Made by a program: the position numbers and the translations under genes
Sequence record: OQ243221
DNA: 46,604 nucleotides
Source of the DNA: Escherichia phage vB_EcoS-UDF157lw
Reading direction: 5' to 3' (one strand)
Notes under the pieces: generated by a model
Database searches by the model: none
What the model was told of the DNA's origin: nothing
The model's input: only the letters and a program-made list of their open reading frames with translations
Part shown: in pieces, positions 30,360 to 40,126 of the stretch
How the letters are laid out: every line of letters starts with the position of its first letter
Numbering within the stretch: position 1 is the stretch's first letter

Positions 30360-30782
30360 ATGCATACTTTAACAGGCGTAATTCGTAAGGCTCCTTTCAC
30401 TAAAGATGGTCAGAACGCCAAGGGTAACTGGAAGATGTACGCTATCGAAATGAGCGAATCTTATAAAACACGAGATGGAGAGCGTAAGTATAGTAATTAT
30501 CGAGCTACCTTCTTTGCTAGCGAGGCGCAAATTAGCTGGTATGACGAAGCATTTCAGGAAGGAAAAGTTATCTCTGTGAGCGGCGATTCATTAGCGGTTA
30601 ATGAGCGCGAACATAATGGCAAGACATATATTACGCTTGAGTTGCAGAATCCTCGATTGATGTTTAGTCAGCGAGGAGGTGAATCAGAACAGCAGCAGCA
30701 GCGACAACAAGCTCAACAGCAACAGAGACAGCAGCCGCAGCAACAAAGCCGATTTAGTGATGAAGATGATATTCCGTTTTAA
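30360..30782 (+). CDS. ssb: Single-stranded DNA-binding protein (140 aa)
   Basis: OB-fold-like N-terminal region, Gln-rich linker, acidic tail ending DEDDIPF. Confidence 0.85.
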   Translation: MHTLTGVIRKAPFTKDGQNAKGNWKMYAIEMSESYKTRDGERKYSNYRATFFASEAQISWYDEAFQEGKVISVSGDSLAVNEREHNGKTYITLELQNPRLMFSQRGGESEQQQQRQQAQQQQRQQPQQQSRFSDEDDIPF

Positions 30783-30788
30783 CTCAAA

Positions 30789-30816
30789 AGAAAAAGCCCC
30801 TTTCGGGGCTTTTTTA
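30789..30816. terminator. Bidirectional rho-independent terminator
   Basis: AGCCCC-tttc-GGGGCT flanked by an A-run upstream and a T-run downstream. Confidence 0.7.
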
Positions 30817-31842
30817 TTGTGACGTTACATCACCATTCAAACTCAAAAATACTGATTGTTTTGTCAAATCAACACCACCTTTAAGCGAATAGTATCTTGA
30901 AGCGCAATAATCAGACTCATCTGAATAGCTGCCAACGTAAACACCAAAGCCATATCCAGAGCAAGCTACATCACCAGCGCCTTGACCTGAATACATGGTT
31001 ACATAGTTACCGGCTGTTGTTAGTATAGGTCTGACATCAATATCTATATACTGAGAATCAAATGACCTTCTAACTCTAAATCCAGTATTCAGGTTTAAGA
31101 TGCTCCACCAAACCTTACCAGATACATCAAAACCAAGAGCAATATTGTAAGTACCACCGTTGACCATTCTTGATGAGACTGGCAACACACCTGATAAAAC
31201 TCTTGTTTCACCTGATGCTGATATTAACAATGAGACACTGTGTTCTCCTGATGCCATCACGTTATACTGCAAGTAAAGAGCATTACTACTAACTCCAAAA
31301 CCAGTCCCTATAGCCATAAGGTTAAAGTCTTCAGCAACAGTTATGGTCGGCGATATATTGCATGTAGCGGTGAAACCTAGTGACGGGTCAAATCCAGTGC
31401 ATATAATCTTATCTTTATTTGCCTGTGAAAGCCTTAGCCAATATTGCTGCCCAACTGATGATGCCGCTGCGGCGAATACTGGTGTATTAGAGACCCCATC
31501 AAAAGCTGAAGTGTCGTTTGCTGGCTTAATTCTTGTCTTCCTTTTGTCTATCAGTCCGTTTATCTTCAGGTTTCCTGAATACTCAGCAACATAGTTAGTG
31601 TCCCCTGAGAAATTTGGGCCAAAGTAACCAGATTCAACAACCCCATCGATCACAACATCAGATCTTGAGTCAAGGAATCTGAAGTTGCCAGCGGAAGTTG
31701 GCCTTCCATCGCCATTGTTAGATACATAGTTAAGCCCAACAAAACCATAGATTCTTACAGAGCTATTTGAAAACGAAACGTTATAATCTCTGTAGTTTGA
31801 GTTTATGCTGTTCCTGTTACTATTTAATCCATTAAATACCAC
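30814..31842 (-). CDS. Tailspike/tail fibre C-terminal portion (342 aa ORF; probably the continuation of 31854-33530)
   Basis: No ATG or RBS (GTG in track); reading frame is open 26 codons further upstream and overlaps the end of the 558-aa ORF in another frame; Ser/Gly/Asn-rich beta composition. Confidence 0.5.
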   Translation of the reverse strand: MVFNGLNSNRNSINSNYRDYNVSFSNSSVRIYGFVGLNYVSNNGDGRPTSAGNFRFLDSRSDVVIDGVVESGYFGPNFSGDTNYVAEYSGNLKINGLIDKRKTRIKPANDTSAFDGVSNTPVFAAAASSVGQQYWLRLSQANKDKIICTGFDPSLGFTATCNISPTITVAEDFNLMAIGTGFGVSSNALYLQYNVMASGEHSVSLLISASGETRVLSGVLPVSSRMVNGGTYNIALGFDVSGKVWWSILNLNTGFRVRRSFDSQYIDIDVRPILTTAGNYVTMYSGQGAGDVACSGYGFGVYVGSYSDESDYCASRYYSLKGGVDLTKQSVFLSLNGDVTSQ

Positions 31843-31853
31843 ATTTCTGGAGT

Positions 31854-33530
31854 TTACAATTCTAACACCGTCACCACCGCAATCCTGCGCCCTATAGCTG
31901 ACATGGTGATGTTTTGGCAGTTATCAATCAGGATGCCATAAGCATCATCAAGCTCATTATAAGCCGACCAACCCGACCAAATAAACTTACCGCCAACAAT
32001 CCTACAGTTTCCGGCATTCCTAAGTATTAGACAATTTCTTCCACAGGTGTTTACCTGTATGTTATTCCATGTGAAGTCTGTTGTTTCGTTAATCAATCCG
32101 TCTTTTTTTATGTGCTGAATAAGAACATCATCAAGAACAGGAGAGTAGTTACCAGCAGCAACGAAAATTCCGTAAACATCAAACCCAGCAATGTGAGTGT
32201 TTCTTATCGTTAAGTCCCTTCTAGGGTCAGCACCAGCGTTGAATGGGTAATTGGTTGATAACCCAGTCGGCGTAGGGATGTAAATCCCAGCAGTACCATC
32301 AGTAAACGCCGTGTCTTGCTGGGCTCCAGTGCCGTAAAGAGCAATGCCTTCAATATGAATGAGCGAGCAAGAATCAGATACCTCAATTAAAGAGCCAATT
32401 GATGAACTAAGCTGAGTTATTCTTGATTTGTGCTTGCCAAAACCAATTATAGAGCAAGATTTATTTCTCATTACCAGGTTTGATGCCATGTAGTCGCTAT
32501 CAAGCTTTAATGCCAGCCCAGAGTCTAGGATTTGCTGTATCTGTGTCGTTGAGTCTGATGTCGATGACTTAATAGCTCCAAGTTCGCAAGGCGACAGCTC
32601 CCCGCTACAGATTCTTTCCCAGTAATAACCGGTACTTGATTCAAAAACCAATCCTGAAGATAATCCATATGATAACGATGACTCCGGCTTACAAACAAAG
32701 AACCCACCACCATAACCAAGACCACCAATGTAAGAATCACAATAGACAACCTCTAAGTCATAAATTCTGGCAGAGTTTGTCATTGCTGATACTGATTCAA
32801 ACCTTCTTGTGTAATCCTGTTGAATCCAAAAACCAACTCCAATACCACCTGTAGACTGTGGTGATGAGTTTTGTGGTATGGATTTTGGAACGCTACCAGA
32901 CCAGTAATAAACCGAAACATGATTGTCATTAAAGTAAATTGCAGGCTGAGTTCTTGAGTTTATTTCTCCACCATTTGAGAAATCAACTACAAGAGCAGAT
33001 GACACAGAAGCCGCAGCAGAGCTTGCTATTGTAGCTGAAGAGGAAGCTGAGTTAGCGCTACTTTCAGCTAACTGCCTATCAGAAGATACCTGATCTTTGT
33101 CAGAAGAAACTTGAGCAGCATCAACAGCAACTTGCTGAGATTGCATGTTGACATTATTTACGCTTTGCTGGAAAGAATCAGAATCAAATTGATTAAAAGC
33201 ATCAACTGCCGCTGCAACCTCTGTTTCACGGGACTGATAATAACGAAGTGTCTCAGCAACGTCCTGAGCAAGACCTTGGACAGTAATTCCGTCATGAGCA
33301 AGGATTGAGTACTGAGTCCCAGCTGGCGCAGTAAAACCTTTATCATTGAATACACGAATCTCTGTATCGCTTAAAATCTCAGCGATAGTAACAATGCTTG
33401 TCGGGGTGGTGTTAAAAATCATTGTTGCGCCAACTCGGATTAGCGTTAGTGGTTGCCTCCACGTGGTGCCAACACCAGTTACAGTTCCGTCAGCTGCAAG
33501 CGATGCAGTTCCAGCGTCATAAATTGCCAT
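31854..33530 (-). CDS. Tailspike / side tail fibre N-terminal portion with beta-helix-like repeats (558 aa)
   Basis: GGAGA RBS; N-terminus MAIYDAGTASLAADGTVTGVGTTW; Ser-rich linker; repetitive N/G/I-rich segments consistent with a parallel beta-helix. Confidence 0.6.
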   Translation of the reverse strand: MAIYDAGTASLAADGTVTGVGTTWRQPLTLIRVGATMIFNTTPTSIVTIAEILSDTEIRVFNDKGFTAPAGTQYSILAHDGITVQGLAQDVAETLRYYQSRETEVAAAVDAFNQFDSDSFQQSVNNVNMQSQQVAVDAAQVSSDKDQVSSDRQLAESSANSASSSATIASSAAASVSSALVVDFSNGGEINSRTQPAIYFNDNHVSVYYWSGSVPKSIPQNSSPQSTGGIGVGFWIQQDYTRRFESVSAMTNSARIYDLEVVYCDSYIGGLGYGGGFFVCKPESSLSYGLSSGLVFESSTGYYWERICSGELSPCELGAIKSSTSDSTTQIQQILDSGLALKLDSDYMASNLVMRNKSCSIIGFGKHKSRITQLSSSIGSLIEVSDSCSLIHIEGIALYGTGAQQDTAFTDGTAGIYIPTPTGLSTNYPFNAGADPRRDLTIRNTHIAGFDVYGIFVAAGNYSPVLDDVLIQHIKKDGLINETTDFTWNNIQVNTCGRNCLILRNAGNCRIVGGKFIWSGWSAYNELDDAYGILIDNCQNITMSAIGRRIAVVTVLEL

Positions 33531-33608: not shown

Positions 33609-34532
33609 CTATGAATGCTTATCTATCAGATCTTGCGGGTTATATAACCTTCTTTCAAGCCCCATCTTGAAATTGCCACCTTTAGGTATTACGACTTTTA
33701 GACCTCTATCATCAGCAACATAAAGCGACTCCTTTTCATCAGCTAAGCAAGCTATCCTGCACTCTTTATTCCTGAGTTCATAAGCAACCATTTCTAAGTT
33801 GTGGTGAGTTAGGCAGTCGTAAGTTGTCCTTTTTGTGCATGCCGATACATGTAGTGCGTTAATCCAGCCAACAGTGAGGTAGATAGCGCCATCACTACAT
33901 TTACTTACCGGAACAACCGAGCCGCGAGTGTAGTCTTTTGCGAGATATGACTCATTACCCTCTTCATCTATAAACTTTACGTTACAAGGCTCATCTGATA
34001 AACCATCCTCGTAAACCATAAAGCATTGCTCGGCTATAATTTCTTCTCCAGACCCCTTTATTCCTATTTTGTATTCCCGTTCAGTAATAATTGCTTCAAA
34101 TCTCGTAAGCTGTGTCATTTCTACAGACTTGGTGCGAGATATTACCTTCTCGATTGATTCAATGGATGCCTGAGCGCCAAAGTTATATCTCTGAACTCGG
34201 CTCGCTGCTTTGTTTGCCTTCACTATGATTTCGACGGGAGTCAAATTAAGCCAGTCGCCAAGTAAATTTATAGCTTCCGCAAATCTAAGGCCGGAACATT
34301 TCATAACCCATCCTATTCCTGAGTCACTGCCGCACTTAGAGCAAACTGCGGCCCCATTACCTTTTTCGCTTCCTATTTCGTCTGTAAACCTGAATCTGTC
34401 AGTACCAAAGCAATAAGGGCACGGCCCGTGCTTCTTGCTAAGGTGTCTATCATTCCAACCAAGCTCCTTTGCATAAAATGATTTCCACAATCCAGCCATT
34501 TTAGGTATTACTTCATTCTTGTCGTAATTCAT
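33609..34532 (-). CDS. Putative DNA primase (zinc-ribbon type, 307 aa)
   Basis: CPYCFG...CSKCG zinc-binding motif near the N-terminus; acidic motif YVADDRG; located in the replication module. Confidence 0.5.
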   Translation of the reverse strand: MNYDKNEVIPKMAGLWKSFYAKELGWNDRHLSKKHGPCPYCFGTDRFRFTDEIGSEKGNGAAVCSKCGSDSGIGWVMKCSGLRFAEAINLLGDWLNLTPVEIIVKANKAASRVQRYNFGAQASIESIEKVISRTKSVEMTQLTRFEAIITEREYKIGIKGSGEEIIAEQCFMVYEDGLSDEPCNVKFIDEEGNESYLAKDYTRGSVVPVSKCSDGAIYLTVGWINALHVSACTKRTTYDCLTHHNLEMVAYELRNKECRIACLADEKESLYVADDRGLKVVIPKGGNFKMGLERRLYNPQDLIDKHS

Positions 34533-35072: not shown

Positions 35073-35113
35073 AGCACTTTTTGTTAAACATTGGTTTAGA
35101 TGGATGTTATTAT
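35073..35113 (+). promoter_or_regulatory. Composite promoter-like element: TAGCACtttttGTTAAA, 21 nt, TATTAT
   Basis: Lies in the divergent intergenic region; the -10 sits inside the track ORF start, which argues for the downstream ATG 35151. Confidence 0.45.
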
Positions 35114-35150
35114 ATCGCCAATCGAACGAACATTAAAGGCATTTGATATT

Positions 35151-37094
35151 ATGGAAAACCGATTGAAAACAATACAAAAACAGATTGAAGAATTGGGCGA
35201 AGATAAGATTAAAGAGATTCAAACTAAATTCACCTCTTCTAACGGTATGGTTCCGTATAGCTATCAGTGTGTTATGTACAATGAGATTGCAAAGCGCATT
35301 AGTCGCTATGAGCATCCATTTATCGCAATGGCTTCAGTTTCTGCTGGTAAGACTCTGGTTTTTGGTATGGTTGCTAAGCGTTGCTCTGAGCTTGGCTTGC
35401 CTATGCTTGTTCTTGCTCGTCAGGCAGAGCTGGTTAGCCAGAATGCTTCTGAGATTTCTGATTACGGGGTTCCTAACTCCATTTATTGCTCTGGGCTTGG
35501 AATAAAATCATCTTATTTCCCTGTGGTGGTTGGCTCTGAGGGCACAGTAGTTGGCGGGCTTAAGAAGTCACTTGGCGATTTCTGTCCTGCGGTAGTTGCT
35601 ATTGATGAGTGTCACCATATTGATGACCAGGACATAGCGGAGGCAATTGATAACAATGAGACTGCGCAACAGGCATTAGATAAGGGGCGTAGCCAGTATA
35701 CGGTCATCATCCTGACTTTAATGGAGCGCTGCCGTGCTAAGTATGGCAAGAATCTCCGTATCTTTGGACTGACTGGTTCTCCTTTCCGTGGAACTACGCC
35801 AATAGTTGTTGAAAACAAAAAGGAGTTGGGATTTTGGCGTGAGACGGTCACAAATATCGATACAAACTACCTGGTCGAGTTCGGTTCCGTGGTTCCGACA
35901 AACTTTGGTGCTACTGATGGCGTTGGTTACGACCTGTCAGAGTTTGATGCATCATCTGAAGATGGTGTTCAGGATTACACTAAAGCCCAGCTTGAAGCCA
36001 TGGATAAAAAGATTCAGGCATCTGGAACAATGACAGCGGAGATAATGAAGAAAGTATGGCTTGCCGCGAAAAACAGGAATGGAGTTCTGGTAACATGCGC
36101 AGGTGAGCGCCATTGCCACGAAGCCGCAAGTTACCTTCCTGAAGGTGAAAAGTTCTGCATTATAACTGGAAAGACTGGCGAGAAGCAGCGCAAGGAGTTG
36201 CTTGATAAGTGCTTTAGCGGGGAGATTAAATATTGCTTTCAGGTTCAGGCGCTAACCACTGGCGTAAATGTGCCTACATGGGATACAAGCGTTATTCTGC
36301 GTAAGATTGGTAGCCTTACACTCCTGGTTCAGCTACTTGGTCGAGGAATGCGTAAGCTTAAGAAGCTCCATGAAGATAAAGGAATGGTCAAGAATGACCA
36401 TTTGGTACTGGACTTCGCAGGAACGATGGACTCTATGGCATCATTGTACTTCAATCCAATTCTTGAGCAGGCTCAATATCAGCTACGAAAGAGTAATGGC
36501 AAGGAGACTAAGCAGTGTCCAGTATGCGGAACAGAGAACAGCTTCTTTGCTCGACGTTGCATGCATATTGATGAGAATAATAATCGCTGCGAATATTTCT
36601 GGGTTAGTCGCACATGTGAAGACCAGAAAGACCCACGAACCGGAAAGGTTATCGTTAAAGGCTGCGGAGTTCAGAATGACGTTGCAGCTAAGATTTGTAG
36701 GGGTTGCGATTGCACTTTGCTTGATCCAAATCTCAACTTAAGCGGCAAACATTACCGCAAGAACGACTGGTTTGATGTTGTTGACTTTAAGGTTGGGCTA
36801 ACAAAGAACCAATCAGGAATCATCTACAACTACATCCTTGATGATGGCATGGGTGGGACATTCAAAGCTCATGAGGTTTTCTTTGTAGAGTCTGACCATC
36901 GAGTATGTAAAACGCTCTGGTTGAACAATGGAATTAAAGGTCACGTAGTCGACATGAACGCTAAGCGATATATGGCTGCATATCGCAATGCTCGCAAGAT
37001 TATGGAGTATGCGCAGTACATCCATGCCCCTAAGAGGGTAACTCACCGCAAGACCGCTAAAGGTGGCGATAATATTGCTAATAAGGAGTTCTAA
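35151..37094 (+). CDS. SF2 DEAH-type DNA helicase with C-terminal Cys-rich zinc-ribbon region (647 aa)
   Basis: Walker A SAGKT, motif II DECHH, further helicase motifs; C-terminal CPVCG...CRGCDC cluster. Confidence 0.85.
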   Translation: MENRLKTIQKQIEELGEDKIKEIQTKFTSSNGMVPYSYQCVMYNEIAKRISRYEHPFIAMASVSAGKTLVFGMVAKRCSELGLPMLVLARQAELVSQNASEISDYGVPNSIYCSGLGIKSSYFPVVVGSEGTVVGGLKKSLGDFCPAVVAIDECHHIDDQDIAEAIDNNETAQQALDKGRSQYTVIILTLMERCRAKYGKNLRIFGLTGSPFRGTTPIVVENKKELGFWRETVTNIDTNYLVEFGSVVPTNFGATDGVGYDLSEFDASSEDGVQDYTKAQLEAMDKKIQASGTMTAEIMKKVWLAAKNRNGVLVTCAGERHCHEAASYLPEGEKFCIITGKTGEKQRKELLDKCFSGEIKYCFQVQALTTGVNVPTWDTSVILRKIGSLTLLVQLLGRGMRKLKKLHEDKGMVKNDHLVLDFAGTMDSMASLYFNPILEQAQYQLRKSNGKETKQCPVCGTENSFFARRCMHIDENNNRCEYFWVSRTCEDQKDPRTGKVIVKGCGVQNDVAAKICRGCDCTLLDPNLNLSGKHYRKNDWFDVVDFKVGLTKNQSGIIYNYILDDGMGGTFKAHEVFFVESDHRVCKTLWLNNGIKGHVVDMNAKRYMAAYRNARKIMEYAQYIHAPKRVTHRKTAKGGDNIANKEF

Positions 37095-37483
37095 TGGTTA
37101 AGGTTTTTCACGACAAAACAAGCACGGACAAGGCTAAAGAGGTTGTTCACCAAATAAATTCAATAGCTTGGGTTCGCCACAACCATCCAGAGATATTTGC
37201 TTTTCACGTGAAGAATGAAGGTCTCAAGTCTATCGGCACAGCAATGAAGGACAAGCAGGAGGGAGTAATTAAGGGTGTATCAGATATTCTACTGATTGGA
37301 CCAAATGGCTTTGCCGCAATAGAGCTTAAGCGAGCAATAAAATCAGATAGCAAGGTTTCAAAGGAGCAAAAGGAGTTCCTGGAAAAGGTATCAGAAACAG
37401 GAGGTTACGCGGCAATCTGTTATGGGTTTGAAATGTTTAAGTTGGCAATTACAGATTATCTATCAAATAGCACGAATTGCTAA
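37094..37483 (+). CDS. VRR-NUC-type nuclease (129 aa)
   Basis: Motif GVSDILLIGPNGFAAIELKRA (PD-(D/E)XK-like D...E.K); start overlaps the helicase stop (TAATG). Confidence 0.6.
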   Translation: MVKVFHDKTSTDKAKEVVHQINSIAWVRHNHPEIFAFHVKNEGLKSIGTAMKDKQEGVIKGVSDILLIGPNGFAAIELKRAIKSDSKVSKEQKEFLEKVSETGGYAAICYGFEMFKLAITDYLSNSTNC

Positions 37484-37510
37484 AGAGATTTCGCAAGGAT
37501 GCGATATAGT
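37468..37510 (+). promoter_or_regulatory. Composite promoter-like element: TAGCACgaaTTGCTAAA, 22 nt, TATAGT, leader CATCGAAACGAAGAGAG
   Basis: Canonical copy; spacer holds CGCAAGGATGCG. Confidence 0.55.
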
Positions 37511-37541
37511 TACTTCATCGAAACGAAGAGAGAGAAACAAA

Positions 37542-37736
37542 ATGACTACTATCTACACTGAAAAGCTGTACAAGTCACGCAAAACTGGTTATGAATATGA
37601 ATTAGCAATCACCCCTGAGGGTTATATTCTTGATGATGGAGACGGTTACTCATTCGAAGTTAGCCCAACATACAAAGATAATTTAGAGACTGTTAAAAAC
37701 GCATTCGGCGAAAAATTTGATGAGGTGTCAGAATAA
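37542..37736 (+). CDS. Hypothetical protein (64 aa)
   Basis: ATG after the conserved leader and RBS; the track ORF start lies upstream of the promoter element. Confidence 0.45.
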   Translation: MTTIYTEKLYKSRKTGYEYELAITPEGYILDDGDGYSFEVSPTYKDNLETVKNAFGEKFDEVSE

Positions 37737-38992: not shown

Positions 38993-40126
38993 ATGGCTAT
39001 AGCTAAAATCACCAACGAAGAGTTAAAGCAAGAACTGGCTAACGGTATGACTAACAAGGCAATCGCAGAGAAGTACGGTATGAATATTCGTAACGTAGAG
39101 CTGCGTCGCAGCAAGTTGGCTAAGGCTGGGGATGGTCACGGTCGCGATGTGAGTAACCTAATTCCTCAGGGCTACATGGTTAAAGGTGTATCTAGCCTTG
39201 TTGATAATGATGGCAATGTGAAGTTGCAATGGGTTAAGTCCTCTATTGATGCAGAGAAGCTTGAGGAGATGATGAATCAAGCGCGAGAGGCATTCTCTAG
39301 CGAGCTACCAAAAGAAAAAGCAGTTAAATCTGAAGGTCTGAATTTTGATGAAGATACTTTAGCTATGTATCCAGTATTTGACCTTCACATTGGCGCAATG
39401 GCCCACAAGCATGAGTGCGGAGAAAACTACGACACAGCAACGGCAGAGAAAGTAATGAACGATTATTTTGACTACGCCGTACAGAAATCTCCAAATTCAA
39501 AGAATGCTGTACTAGTGCTAGGAGGTGATCTGCTTCATTATGATTCTTTGGAAGCCAAAACTCCAGCCAGTGGTCACATCCTGGACAGTGACAGTCGCTA
39601 CGCCAAGATTGTTTATGTTTGCATTCGAGCGGTTCGCCGCGCAATTCGAAACATGCTTAGCAAACATGAAAACGTAGAGGTTAAAGTTATATCTGGTAAT
39701 CATGATGAAAGTGGTATGGTTTGGTTGCGGGCTGCGCTTGCTGCATTTTATGAGGAAGAGCCACGCGTTAGTATTGATGTTAGTCCCGCGGCAATGATGG
39801 TAACTAAGTTTGGTTCTACAATGCTTGGTTTCACTCACGGGCATCAAATGCGTAAAGCTGATACTCGCCTTTCGGTTATGGCTACTGACTGGCGACGTGA
39901 CTTTGGTTTAAGTGATTATGTATACACCCACTCAGGCCACTGGCATTCACAGAAGATTACAGAGACAAATCTTGGTATTGATGAGGTTCATGGTCAGCTT
40001 GGTTCACCAGATGCATATAGTGCGAATGGTGGATGGCGCTCACAAAGGCAGGCCGCGGTAATCATCTATCATAAAGAGTTTGGTGAGGTTGGTCGCTTTA
40101 TCTGCCGTCCAGAAATGTTCAAATAA
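38993..40126 (+). CDS. Calcineurin-like metallophosphoesterase with N-terminal HTH-like domain (377 aa)
   Basis: Phosphoesterase motifs D-L-H (FDLHIG), GGDLLH, GNHDE, GH.H (HSGHWH); N-terminal about 110 aa with HTH-like TNKAIAEKYGMNIRNVELRRSKL. Confidence 0.8.
   Translation: MAIAKITNEELKQELANGMTNKAIAEKYGMNIRNVELRRSKLAKAGDGHGRDVSNLIPQGYMVKGVSSLVDNDGNVKLQWVKSSIDAEKLEEMMNQAREAFSSELPKEKAVKSEGLNFDEDTLAMYPVFDLHIGAMAHKHECGENYDTATAEKVMNDYFDYAVQKSPNSKNAVLVLGGDLLHYDSLEAKTPASGHILDSDSRYAKIVYVCIRAVRRAIRNMLSKHENVEVKVISGNHDESGMVWLRAALAAFYEEEPRVSIDVSPAAMMVTKFGSTMLGFTHGHQMRKADTRLSVMATDWRRDFGLSDYVYTHSGHWHSQKITETNLGIDEVHGQLGSPDAYSANGGWRSQRQAAVIIYHKEFGEVGRFICRPEMFK

What the first reader, a model, noticed from the sequence alone, without database searches (positions are those of the whole stretch)
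35151..37483. Translationally coupled SF2 helicase (with zinc-ribbon C-terminus) and VRR-NUC nuclease
The helicase stop overlaps the nuclease start (TAATG), implying stoichiometric co-expression. The pairing suggests a replication-fork or recombination-intermediate processing unit; the Cys-rich C-terminal extension of the helicase is unusual.
Basis: partly seen in the sequence, partly recalled or inferred. Interest (0 to 1): 0.35.

Follow-up and report, generated by a model that had tools for sequence, protein, structure and literature searches.

The report
Phage RadD-like helicase plus junction nuclease
This is the already-annotated helicase and VRR-NUC nuclease gene pair of a published T1-like E. 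coli phage; the helicase's "unusual" cysteine-rich part is the double zinc finger typical of the bacterial repair protein RadD, so the finding is real but ordinary.

Summary
An SF2 helicase ORF (35151 or 35100 to 37094, +) ends in TAA, which shares one base with the ATG of a 129-aa VRR-NUC ORF (37094..37483).

The window is a Rogunavirus (Drexlerviridae, T1-like), 99.6% identical to phage AHP42. Public records already call these genes "ATP-dependent helicase" and "VRR-NUC domain-containing protein". A few records name the helicase yejH or radD.

The helicase is a full-length homologue of E. coli RadD (PDB 6JDE E=7e-38; Foldseek 4e-32). Its Cys-rich segment is not C-terminal. It sits between the second motor domain and a C-terminal domain, and its eight invariant cysteines match RadD's two zinc fingers.

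The nuclease has the E/D/ExK/Q active site. Its closest solved relative is psNUC (family-profile E=2e-18), a dimeric Holliday-junction resolvase.

The pair is adjacent in 81 of 81 informative related loci, and in Skatevirus, Brucella and Vibrio phages at 27-45% helicase identity.

The overlap proves little. The nuclease has its own AAGGAG ribosome-binding site, 13 of 69 same-strand junctions in AHP42 (99.6% identical to the window over the 5-kb region compared) overlap by 1 or 4 nt, and two relatives carry an HNH gene between the pair.

Most likely role: remodelling and resolving branched recombination or replication intermediates. Interest is low.

The parts
35085..35113 (+). Promoter-like site (TAAACA-17-TATTAT with a TG before the -10) in the divergent intergenic region upstream of the helicase
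   Evidence: Consensus scan. Promoter-like sites are not enriched over shuffles in this region, so this is only suggestive. It would place the transcript start after the 35100 ATG.
35151..37094 (+). RadD-like SF2 ATPase/helicase gene (647 aa; the alternative upstream ATG at 35100 gives 664 aa)
   Evidence: ORF. Pfam Helicase_C and ResIII. phrog_16 DNA helicase, E=5.8e-92. PDB RadD 6JDE, E=7.1e-38 over residues 61-547. NCBIfam heli_RadD_YejH, 189 bits, profile positions 11-561 of 573. Foldseek top 8 hits are all RadD, E=4e-32 to 1e-26. 100% identical to the Rogue1 helicase.
35340..35354 (+). Walker A / motif I (SAGKT; K84 corresponds to RadD K37)
   Evidence: Read from the sequence. K is invariant in 33 of 33 family members and aligns with RadD K37.
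35604..35615 (+). Motif II, DECH (D169-H172, corresponding to RadD D117-H120)
   Evidence: Read from the sequence. Invariant in 33 of 33 and aligned with RadD DECH.
36516..36713 (+). Double zinc-finger module (residues 473-538). Eight family-invariant Cys: 473, 476, 487, 497, 506, 522, 533, 536
   Evidence: Invariant columns. Aligned with the RadD ZF1/ZF2 region. RadD zinc ligands C384/387/411/425 and C434/437/448/451 are from PMC9049331.
36756..37091 (+). C-terminal domain of the helicase (residues ~553-664, beta-rich plus helices), collinear with the RadD C-terminal domain
   Evidence: The NCBIfam RadD profile is matched to position 561 of 573. AF2 model pLDDT is mostly 80-92 here.
37083..37088 (+). 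Shine-Dalgarno sequence AAGGAG for the nuclease, lying inside the last helicase codons (K-E-F), 5 nt before the ATG
   Evidence: Read from the sequence. A GGAG in the same position recurs at many of the relatives' junctions.
37092..37096 (+). TAATG stop/start overlap (helicase TAA, nuclease ATG, one shared base)
   Evidence: The same compact junction is seen in relatives, with varying forms.
37094..37483 (+). Stand-alone VRR-NUC nuclease gene (129 aa), psNUC-type putative Holliday-junction resolvase. Catalytic residues: E16, D64 (37283-37285), E77-x-K79 (37322-37330), Q92
   Evidence: Pfam VRR_NUC, 29.2 bits against a 23.8-bit cut-off. phrog_824, E=1e-51. Invariant residues. AF2 pLDDT 91. Foldseek top hits 4QBL/4QBN/4QBO, then Hjc and RecU. 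Family profile against 4QBL, E=1.8e-18.

Best explanation
These are two co-transcribed DNA-metabolism genes of a T1-like (Rogunavirus) phage.

The first encodes a RadD-family SF2 ATPase. It has two RecA-like motor domains, then a module with two zinc sites, then a C-terminal domain. The second encodes a small stand-alone VRR-NUC nuclease of the type that forms homodimers and resolves Holliday junctions.

Proposed mechanism (inferred, not shown). The phage has no DNA polymerase gene. It carries its own exonuclease VIII-like nuclease, Erf-type annealing protein and SSB. Recombination and recombination-primed replication therefore generate branched concatemers. The RadD-like motor remodels or branch-migrates these joint molecules, possibly recruited or stimulated by the phage SSB, whose tail ends in DEDDIPF. 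The VRR-NUC dimer then cuts the four-way or fork junctions, so that linear concatemers can be packaged.

The compact junction with an embedded Shine-Dalgarno sequence ensures co-expression from one mRNA. It does not imply fixed stoichiometry.
For: Shown here:
- Phage identity: the 5-kb region is 99.6% identical to Rogunavirus AHP42.
- RadD homology by sequence, profile and fold, including the motor motifs and eight cysteines.
- The nuclease has an invariant E/D/ExK/Q site.
[quoted passage not shown] Its best fold and profile matches are to psNUC 4QBL.
- The nuclease gene lies directly after the helicase gene in 81 of 81 informative loci (IMG/VR loci plus two GenBank records). In 79 the junction is tight; in 2 an HNH gene sits between them.
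- The pair is also kept in T1, Skatevirus KFS-SE2, Brucella phage Tb and two Vibrio phage lineages, down to about 27% helicase identity, while the other neighbouring genes differ.
- An exonuclease VIII-like gene, a recombination protein and an SSB ending in DEDDIPF lie in the same window.

From the literature:
- RadD has two zinc fingers (PMC9049331).
- RadD binds the SSB C-terminus through a pocket framed by R21, R49 and R145 (PMC10238739).
- RadD accelerates RecA strand exchange (PMC8887467).
- Stand-alone VRR-NUC proteins are dimers that cut four-way junctions symmetrically (PMC4103454).
- T1 and TLS lack a polymerase gene (PMC11447400).
Against: - No experiment exists on this pair. The cooperation of the two proteins rests on conserved adjacency only.
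- E. coli RadD shows no autonomous helicase or branch-migration activity and works with RecA, which the phage does not encode (PMC8887467).
- The helicase scores 189 bits against an equivalog cut-off of 720, so it is a diverged homologue and may act differently.
- Two of the three SSB-pocket arginines are Ser in this phage.
- HNH insertions between the genes in two relatives show that tight coupling is dispensable.
- The TLS authors suggest instead a role in replication initiation together with the primase.
Confidence: 0.6

Rival explanations
1. The helicase is chiefly a replication protein. It would unwind the origin or drive forks together with the divergently encoded primase and the host polymerase. 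The VRR-NUC would be an unrelated neighbour that merely shares the early/middle operon.
For: - The primase gene (33609..34532, -) lies just upstream, on the other side of a regulator gene.
- The phage has no DnaB-like helicase among the annotated genes.
- The TLS paper proposes that the primase and helicase might initiate replication (PMC11447400).
Against: - The protein is a monomer-type SF2 RadD homologue, not a ring helicase. E. coli RadD has no independent helicase activity.
- The helicase-nuclease adjacency persists where the primase is elsewhere or of a different type. Examples are Vibrio phage 1.286.O, Brucella phage Tb and KFS-SE2. That argues the nuclease is the helicase's constant partner.
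Confidence: 0.25
2. The pair is a weapon or counter-defence module. A helicase-nuclease would degrade host DNA or attack competing elements, in the way of restriction-like or defence-type helicase-nuclease systems.
For: - In Brucella phage Tb the downstream gene is annotated 'putative type III restriction endonuclease'.
- VRR-NUC domains also occur as toxic T6SS effectors (PMC9635880, title and abstract).
- There are weak PADLOC hits of the helicase to PbeA and type IV restriction enzymes.
Against: - The PADLOC hits cover only the generic Helicase_C region (E=1e-6 to 1e-8), and the nuclease hits nothing.
- The nuclease is closest to the junction-specific psNUC.
- There is no immunity gene or targeting domain.
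- The genes sit among recombination and replication genes and are part of the conserved core of strictly lytic phages.
Confidence: 0.05
3. The two proteins form an obligate 1:1 complex whose stoichiometry is set by translational coupling.
For: - The stop and start codons overlap.
- The junction is 5 nt or less in 79 of 81 loci.
- There is a known precedent for an SF2 helicase bound to an adjacent-gene nuclease: archaeal XPB-Bax1 appears among the helicase's fold hits.
Against: - The nuclease has its own strong Shine-Dalgarno sequence.
- The form of the junction varies between relatives.
- An HNH gene splits the pair in L006 and L078.
- Overlaps are generic in this genome.
- Resolvase-type VRR-NUC proteins act as homodimers, which already departs from 1:1.
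Confidence: 0.1

Closest known systems
E. coli RadD (YejH), PDB 6JDE / 7R7J / 8H5Y
   Same: - SF2 core with GKT/S and DECH motifs.
- Eight cysteines between RecA-like domain 2 and the C-terminal domain, matching the two zinc fingers.
- Collinear over nearly the full length.
- The R145 equivalent (R220) and the hydrophobic residues of the SSB pocket are conserved.

   Different: - About 23% identity (Foldseek), and below NCBIfam's equivalog cut-off (189 against 720 bits).
- An extra N-terminal helical segment of about 45 residues, and an insertion of about 18 residues in domain 1.
- Cys spacing differs: one zinc knuckle appears expanded or re-wired.
- R21 and R49 are Ser here.
- It is phage-encoded, next to a resolvase-type nuclease, and the genome has an Erf-type recombinase rather than RecA. 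To my knowledge, E. coli radD has no such neighbour; this was not checked here.
psNUC / stNUC / saNUC, stand-alone VRR-NUC Holliday-junction resolvases (PDB 4QBL, 4QBO, 4QBN; PMC4103454)
   Same: - Single-domain protein of about 130 residues.
- E/D/ExK active site plus the VRR-specific Gln.
- Core fold with the short helix between beta1 and beta2, as in psNUC.
- Family-profile E=1.8e-18 to 4QBL.

   Different: Only about 22% identity to psNUC. Dimerisation and junction cleavage have not been tested for the phage protein.
T1 / TLS helicase (TLS Gp58) and 'Holiday junction recombinase' (TLS Gp59), and the same pair in other Drexlerviridae
   Same: Orthologous gene pair in the same order and orientation, next to the divergent primase and regulator genes.
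   Different: 50-62% identity for the helicase. The stop/start arrangement at the junction differs from genus to genus.
RuvAB-RuvC, RecG/RusA and T4 UvsW/endonuclease VII (a branch-migration motor plus a resolvase)
   Same: Same proposed division of labour: an ATP-driven motor on branched DNA plus a dimeric junction-cutting nuclease. In phages this is needed to debranch DNA before packaging (established knowledge).
   Different: Unrelated motor and nuclease families. Cooperation is not demonstrated here.
Archaeal XPB-Bax1, and SNF2 helicase + VRR-NUC pairs in other (pro)phages (e.g. Streptococcus Phi1207.3 orf24/orf25)
   Same: An SF2 helicase encoded next to a small nuclease. XPB is the next-best fold class after RadD. 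A VRR-NUC gene adjacent to an SF2 helicase gene recurs in phages.
   Different: XPB and Bax1 form a characterised complex, which is not known here. The Phi1207.3 helicase is of the SNF2 type, not the RadD type.

Membership tests
RadD/YejH family of SF2 ATPases | SF2 motor with Walker A lysine (RadD K37) and DECH motif II (D117-H120) | tested here: met
   K84 and D169-E170-C171-H172 align with the RadD residues and are invariant in 33 of 33 family members.
RadD/YejH family of SF2 ATPases | Two Cys4 zinc sites (ZF1: C384/387/411/425; ZF2: C434/437/448/451) between RecA-like domain 2 and the C-terminal domain | tested here: met
   Eight invariant Cys (473, 476, 487, 497, 506, 522, 533, 536) lie in the homologous segment. 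phmmer places five of them directly on RadD zinc ligands (C473/C476/C497/C522/C533/C536 region; C506 lies 4 residues from C425). A MAFFT alignment suggests a one-to-one 8:8 mapping, but that run dropped RadD residues (--keeplength), so it is only indicative. Zinc content was not measured.
RadD/YejH family of SF2 ATPases | Full-length collinearity including the C-terminal domain, with RadD as the best structural match | tested here: met
   The NCBIfam RadD profile is matched over positions 11-561 of 573. The top eight Foldseek hits are RadD chains, E=4e-32 to 1e-26; the next class is XPB at 3e-13.
RadD/YejH family of SF2 ATPases | Score above NCBIfam's equivalog cut-off (orthologue with the same function) | tested here: not met
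   189 bits against a 720-bit cut-off. This makes it a homologue of the family, not an equivalog of E. coli RadD.
RadD/YejH family of SF2 ATPases | SSB C-terminus binding pocket: R21, R49 and R145 plus a hydrophobic floor (T16, L17, F20, L44, L113, L147) | tested here: inconclusive
   R145 corresponds to R220 (invariant). L113 corresponds to V165, L147 to F222, L44 to V91, and F20 to I67, all conserved and hydrophobic. R21 corresponds to S68 and R49 to S96 in this phage; position 96 is R or K in 19 of 33 relatives. Basic residues K65, R66, R69, K93 and R94 lie nearby. The phage SSB ends in DEDDIPF.
RadD/YejH family of SF2 ATPases | RecA-dependent acceleration of strand exchange; no autonomous helicase activity | not testable with these tools
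   This is a biochemical property (PMC8887467).
VRR-NUC (PF08774), stand-alone resolvase type | Pfam gathering threshold passed | tested here: met
   29.2 bits against a 23.8-bit cut-off, E=1.1e-6. All close relatives carry PF08774.
VRR-NUC (PF08774), stand-alone resolvase type | PD-(D/E)xK active site (Glu on helix 1, Asp, Glu-x-Lys) plus the VRR-specific Gln that bonds the Lys | tested here: met
   E16, D64, E77, K79 and Q92 are invariant in 22 of 22 sequences. They align with the E/PD/IEIK/QK positions of psNUC.
VRR-NUC (PF08774), stand-alone resolvase type | [quoted passage not shown] | tested here: met
   The AF2 model (pLDDT 91) has H16-30, E35-38, a short helix H47-55, E65-69, E72-79, H90-101, E105-110 and H112-124. 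This is the psNUC-like subtype described in PMC4103454. Best fold hits are 4QBL, 4QBN and 4QBO.
VRR-NUC (PF08774), stand-alone resolvase type | Homodimer that cuts four-way junctions symmetrically | not testable with these tools
   Needs protein biochemistry. It has been shown only for psNUC, stNUC and saNUC.
Translationally coupled gene pair | Stop codon of the upstream gene overlaps or abuts the start codon of the downstream gene | tested here: met
   TAATG at 37092-37096. The junction is tight in 79 of 81 related loci.
Translationally coupled gene pair | Downstream gene depends on upstream translation (no independent ribosome-binding site, or the site is occluded) | tested here: not met
   AAGGAG lies 5 nt before the ATG. 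HNH genes split the pair in L006 and L078. Actual dependence needs a reporter experiment.
Anti-phage defence helicase-nuclease systems (PADLOC) | Significant full-length match of both proteins to a defence-system model | tested here: not met
   Only Helicase_C-level hits for the helicase (E=7.5e-8 and weaker). No hit for the nuclease.

The most novel reading that the evidence does not exclude
The RadD-type motor and the psNUC-type VRR-NUC resolvase form a dedicated two-protein 'resolvasome', conserved from Drexlerviridae to Brucella and Vibrio phages. The phage RadD would act on four-way junctions without RecA, perhaps through the phage SSB tail. If so, the phage pair would be a simple system for finding out what the still enigmatic RadD family does to DNA.
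Probability: 0.25. Interest if true: 0.45.

Novelty: already known. Interest (0 to 1): 0.15.

Why it matters
For the scan this matters little. It is a correctly read but already annotated gene pair of a published phage.

The one useful point concerns E. coli RadD, whose mechanism is still debated. RadD has abundant phage homologues: 1657 phage records match at E<=1e-10. In every lineage sampled here, these homologues are locked next to a junction-resolving nuclease.

That conserved neighbourhood is circumstantial support for RadD-family motors acting on branched recombination intermediates. It also offers a small, genetically tractable system (T1-like phages) in which to test the idea.

Tried and rejected
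- A single-sequence phmmer search of the nuclease against PDB found nothing meaningful. The family profile was needed.
- Pfam alone missed the VRR-NUC neighbour in the Brucella, Skatevirus and one Vibrio phage. A profile built from alignment A1 found them at 45-110 bits. Those E-values refer to a six-sequence search only.
- A genome-contig scan with the nuclease alignment returned no confirmed relative. I therefore could not ask whether bacterial chromosomes keep the pair.
- The PADLOC scan argues against a defence-system reading.
- Literature searches for RadD together with VRR-NUC, for T1 genetics of these genes, and for defence-escape mutations in the Drexlerviridae helicase gave nothing specific.
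- I wanted Cys-Cys distances from the AF2 model to assign the zinc ligands, but model coordinates are not exposed to the script sandbox.
- My first MAFFT run used --keeplength, which dropped RadD residues. Its residue numbers for the zinc columns are therefore wrong. Only the printed alignment block and the SSB-pocket and ATPase columns were used.
- The split helicase in the JK06 and phiJLA23 records looks like frameshifts in old sequence. I did not pursue it.
Full report
**What is there**

The + strand carries a long ORF at 35100..37094 (664 aa). A 129-aa ORF follows at 37094..37483.

The sequence at the junction reads AAT AAG GAG TTC TAATG GTT. The helicase TAA (37092-37094) and the nuclease ATG (37094-37096) share one base. 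An AAGGAG Shine-Dalgarno sequence (37083-37088) lies 5 nt before the ATG. The coordinates and the overlap are therefore confirmed.

The 35151 start is more likely than 35100, for three reasons:
- Residues 1-20 of the long form are modelled at pLDDT of about 32.
- Most relatives align only from residue 22-25 onward.
- A promoter-like site at 35085-35113 would put the transcript start beyond 35100. This is weak evidence.

**Where the window comes from**

The 5-kb region is 99.2-99.6% identical to Escherichia phages AHP42, AKS96, BECP10, Rogue1, C119, phiKP26 and phiJLA23, and 98.6% to JK06. These are genus Rogunavirus, family Drexlerviridae, that is, T1-like phages.

Public records already annotate both genes:
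- BECP10 calls them "ATP-dependent helicase" and "VRR-NUC domain-containing protein".
- JK06 names the helicase yejH.
- KFS-SE2 and PWKp20 name it radD.
- The re-annotation of phage TLS lists helicase Gp58 and "Holiday junction recombinase" Gp59 (PMC11447400).
- Phage KMI8 has ORF31 helicase followed by ORF32 VRR-NUC (PMC8423285).

**The helicase**

General family hits:
- Pfam finds Helicase_C and ResIII.
- PHROGs places it in phrog_16, DNA helicase, at E=5.8e-92.

The informative result is homology to E. coli RadD (YejH):
- phmmer against PDB gives E=7.1e-38 over residues 61-547.
- The NCBIfam RadD model is matched over profile positions 11-561 of 573, at 189 bits. That is far below the 720-bit equivalog cut-off.
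- An AF2 model (pLDDT 80.6) has RadD chains as its eight best Foldseek hits, with E from 4e-32 to 1e-26. The next class, archaeal XPB, is at about 3e-13.
- The Walker A lysine and the DECH motif align with RadD K37 and D117-H120. Both are invariant in the phage family.

The Cys-rich stretch (residues 473-538, DNA 36516..36713) is not a C-terminal extension. About 125 residues of a structured C-terminal domain follow it.

The family has eight invariant cysteines: 473, 476, 487, 497, 506, 522, 533 and 536. The high-resolution RadD structure has two Cys4 zinc fingers in exactly this place. ZF1 uses C384, C387, C411 and C425. ZF2 uses C434, C437, C448 and C451 (PMC9049331).

The phmmer alignment puts most phage cysteines directly on RadD ligands. 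A MAFFT alignment suggests a one-to-one mapping of all eight, with different loop lengths, but that run dropped RadD residues and is only indicative. The "unusual" feature is thus the family hallmark of RadD.

**A possible SSB link**

RadD binds the SSB C-terminal tip in a hydrophobic pocket framed by R21, R49 and R145 (PMC10238739). In the phage protein:
- The R145 equivalent (R220) is invariant.
- The hydrophobic floor is conserved.
- R21 and R49 correspond to Ser, with other basic residues nearby.

The phage's own SSB (30360..30782) ends in DEDDIPF, like the DDDIPF tip of E. coli SSB. An SSB link is therefore plausible but unproven.

**The nuclease**

- Pfam VRR_NUC is passed at 29.2 bits, against a 23.8-bit cut-off.
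- In an alignment of 22 relatives, E16, D64, E77, K79 and Q92 are invariant. These are the PD-(D/E)xK site plus the Gln typical of VRR-NUC.
- Its best structural matches are 4QBL (psNUC), 4QBN and 4QBO, followed by the Hjc and RecU resolvases.
- The family profile hits psNUC at E=1.8e-18, with the catalytic residues aligned.

Pennell et al. showed that these stand-alone VRR-NUC proteins are dimers that cut four-way junctions symmetrically. psNUC behaves as a canonical resolvase. FAN1 is monomeric because of a two-helix insertion (PMC4103454), and that insertion is absent here.

**Is the pairing meaningful?**

Yes, as a conserved neighbourhood.
- In 81 of 81 informative loci (79 IMG/VR loci plus two GenBank records), the VRR-NUC gene is the next gene after the helicase. 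In 79 the junction is tight. In two (L006, L078) an HNH homing-endonuclease gene sits between them.
- tblastn finds the helicase in 1657 phage records, including Klebsiella, Salmonella, Vibrio and Brucella phages.
- I sampled five distant lineages: T1, Skatevirus KFS-SE2, Brucella phage Tb, Vibrio phage 1253 and Vibrio phage 1.286.O. Helicase identity runs from 57% down to 27%.
- In all five, the next or next-but-one gene matches the VRR-NUC family profile at 45-140 bits, although the surrounding genes differ.

**Is the overlap meaningful?**

Hardly.
- In AHP42, 20 of 69 same-strand junctions overlap: 6 by 1 nt and 7 by 4 nt (hand count).
- Among relatives the junction is TAATG, ATGA, TAGTG or a 2-4 nt gap. 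A GGAG embedded in the helicase's final K-E/D-F codons recurs at many of these junctions.

This guarantees co-transcription and permits re-initiation. However, the nuclease has its own strong ribosome-binding site, and the HNH insertions show that the arrangement can be broken. "Stoichiometric co-expression" is not implied. A resolvase dimer would not be 1:1 with a monomeric motor in any case.

**Most likely function**

The window also encodes an exonuclease VIII-like protein, a recombination protein, SSB, a primase and a phrog_704 "DNA repair exonuclease". T1-type phages have no polymerase gene.

My best reading is that the RadD-like motor remodels joint molecules formed during recombination and recombination-primed replication. 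The VRR-NUC dimer then resolves the junctions before packaging. This would be analogous in logic to RuvAB-RuvC or to T4 UvsW with endonuclease VII.

The identities of the two proteins are well supported. Their cooperation and the substrates are inferred from adjacency and from the properties of homologues. I put 0.6 on this explanation.

Rivals:
- A replication-initiation or fork role with the primase, with the nuclease an independent neighbour: 0.25.
- An obligate 1:1 complex set by translational coupling: 0.1.
- An offensive or defence-type helicase-nuclease: 0.05. PADLOC gives only generic helicase hits.

**Verdict**

The feature is already known and annotated.

The one point of modest interest is that RadD, whose mechanism in E. 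coli is still unclear (PMC8887467), has a very large phage branch that is always paired with a junction resolvase. My literature searches found no paper discussing this link. Interest: 0.15.

Noticed in passing
window 30814..33530 (- strand), around 31891: The tail fibre/tailspike gene is split into a 558-aa ORF and a 342-aa ORF. AHP42 has one 905-aa CDS here. The alignment shows a single-base deletion in the window just after 31891, which causes a frameshift. It could be a sequencing error, a pseudogene or a real variant.
   Followed up: partly
L006 5964..6494 and L078 5991..6464: In two related phages an HNH homing-endonuclease gene (motif DHINHIRDDNRIENLRL) is inserted exactly between the helicase and VRR-NUC genes. 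This junction is therefore a homing site.
   Followed up: partly
window 30360..30782 (+): The phage SSB ends in ...SRFSDEDDIPF. This mimics the E. coli SSB C-terminal tip that recruits RadD and many other host proteins.
   Followed up: partly
window 37422..37736 (+): An ORF overlaps the 3' end of the VRR-NUC gene by 62 nt in another frame. BECP10 annotates the long form (104 aa). AHP42 annotates only a 64-aa version starting further downstream. The true start is unclear.
   Followed up: no
L089 (phage JK06) 1801..3794: The JK06 record splits the helicase into two overlapping CDSs (JK_72 'yejH' and JK_70 'helicase-related') and has a shortened nuclease CDS. It also carries about 190 extra bases relative to the window somewhere in the 5-kb region. 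These are probably old-sequence frameshifts; I did not examine them.
   Followed up: no
window 38993..40126 (+): A 377-aa protein in phrog_704 ('DNA repair exonuclease', E=1.7e-155), with a weak Metallophos match, lies at the end of the same rightward gene block. It is annotated only as hypothetical in AHP42 and BECP10. It may belong to the same DNA-processing set.
   Followed up: no
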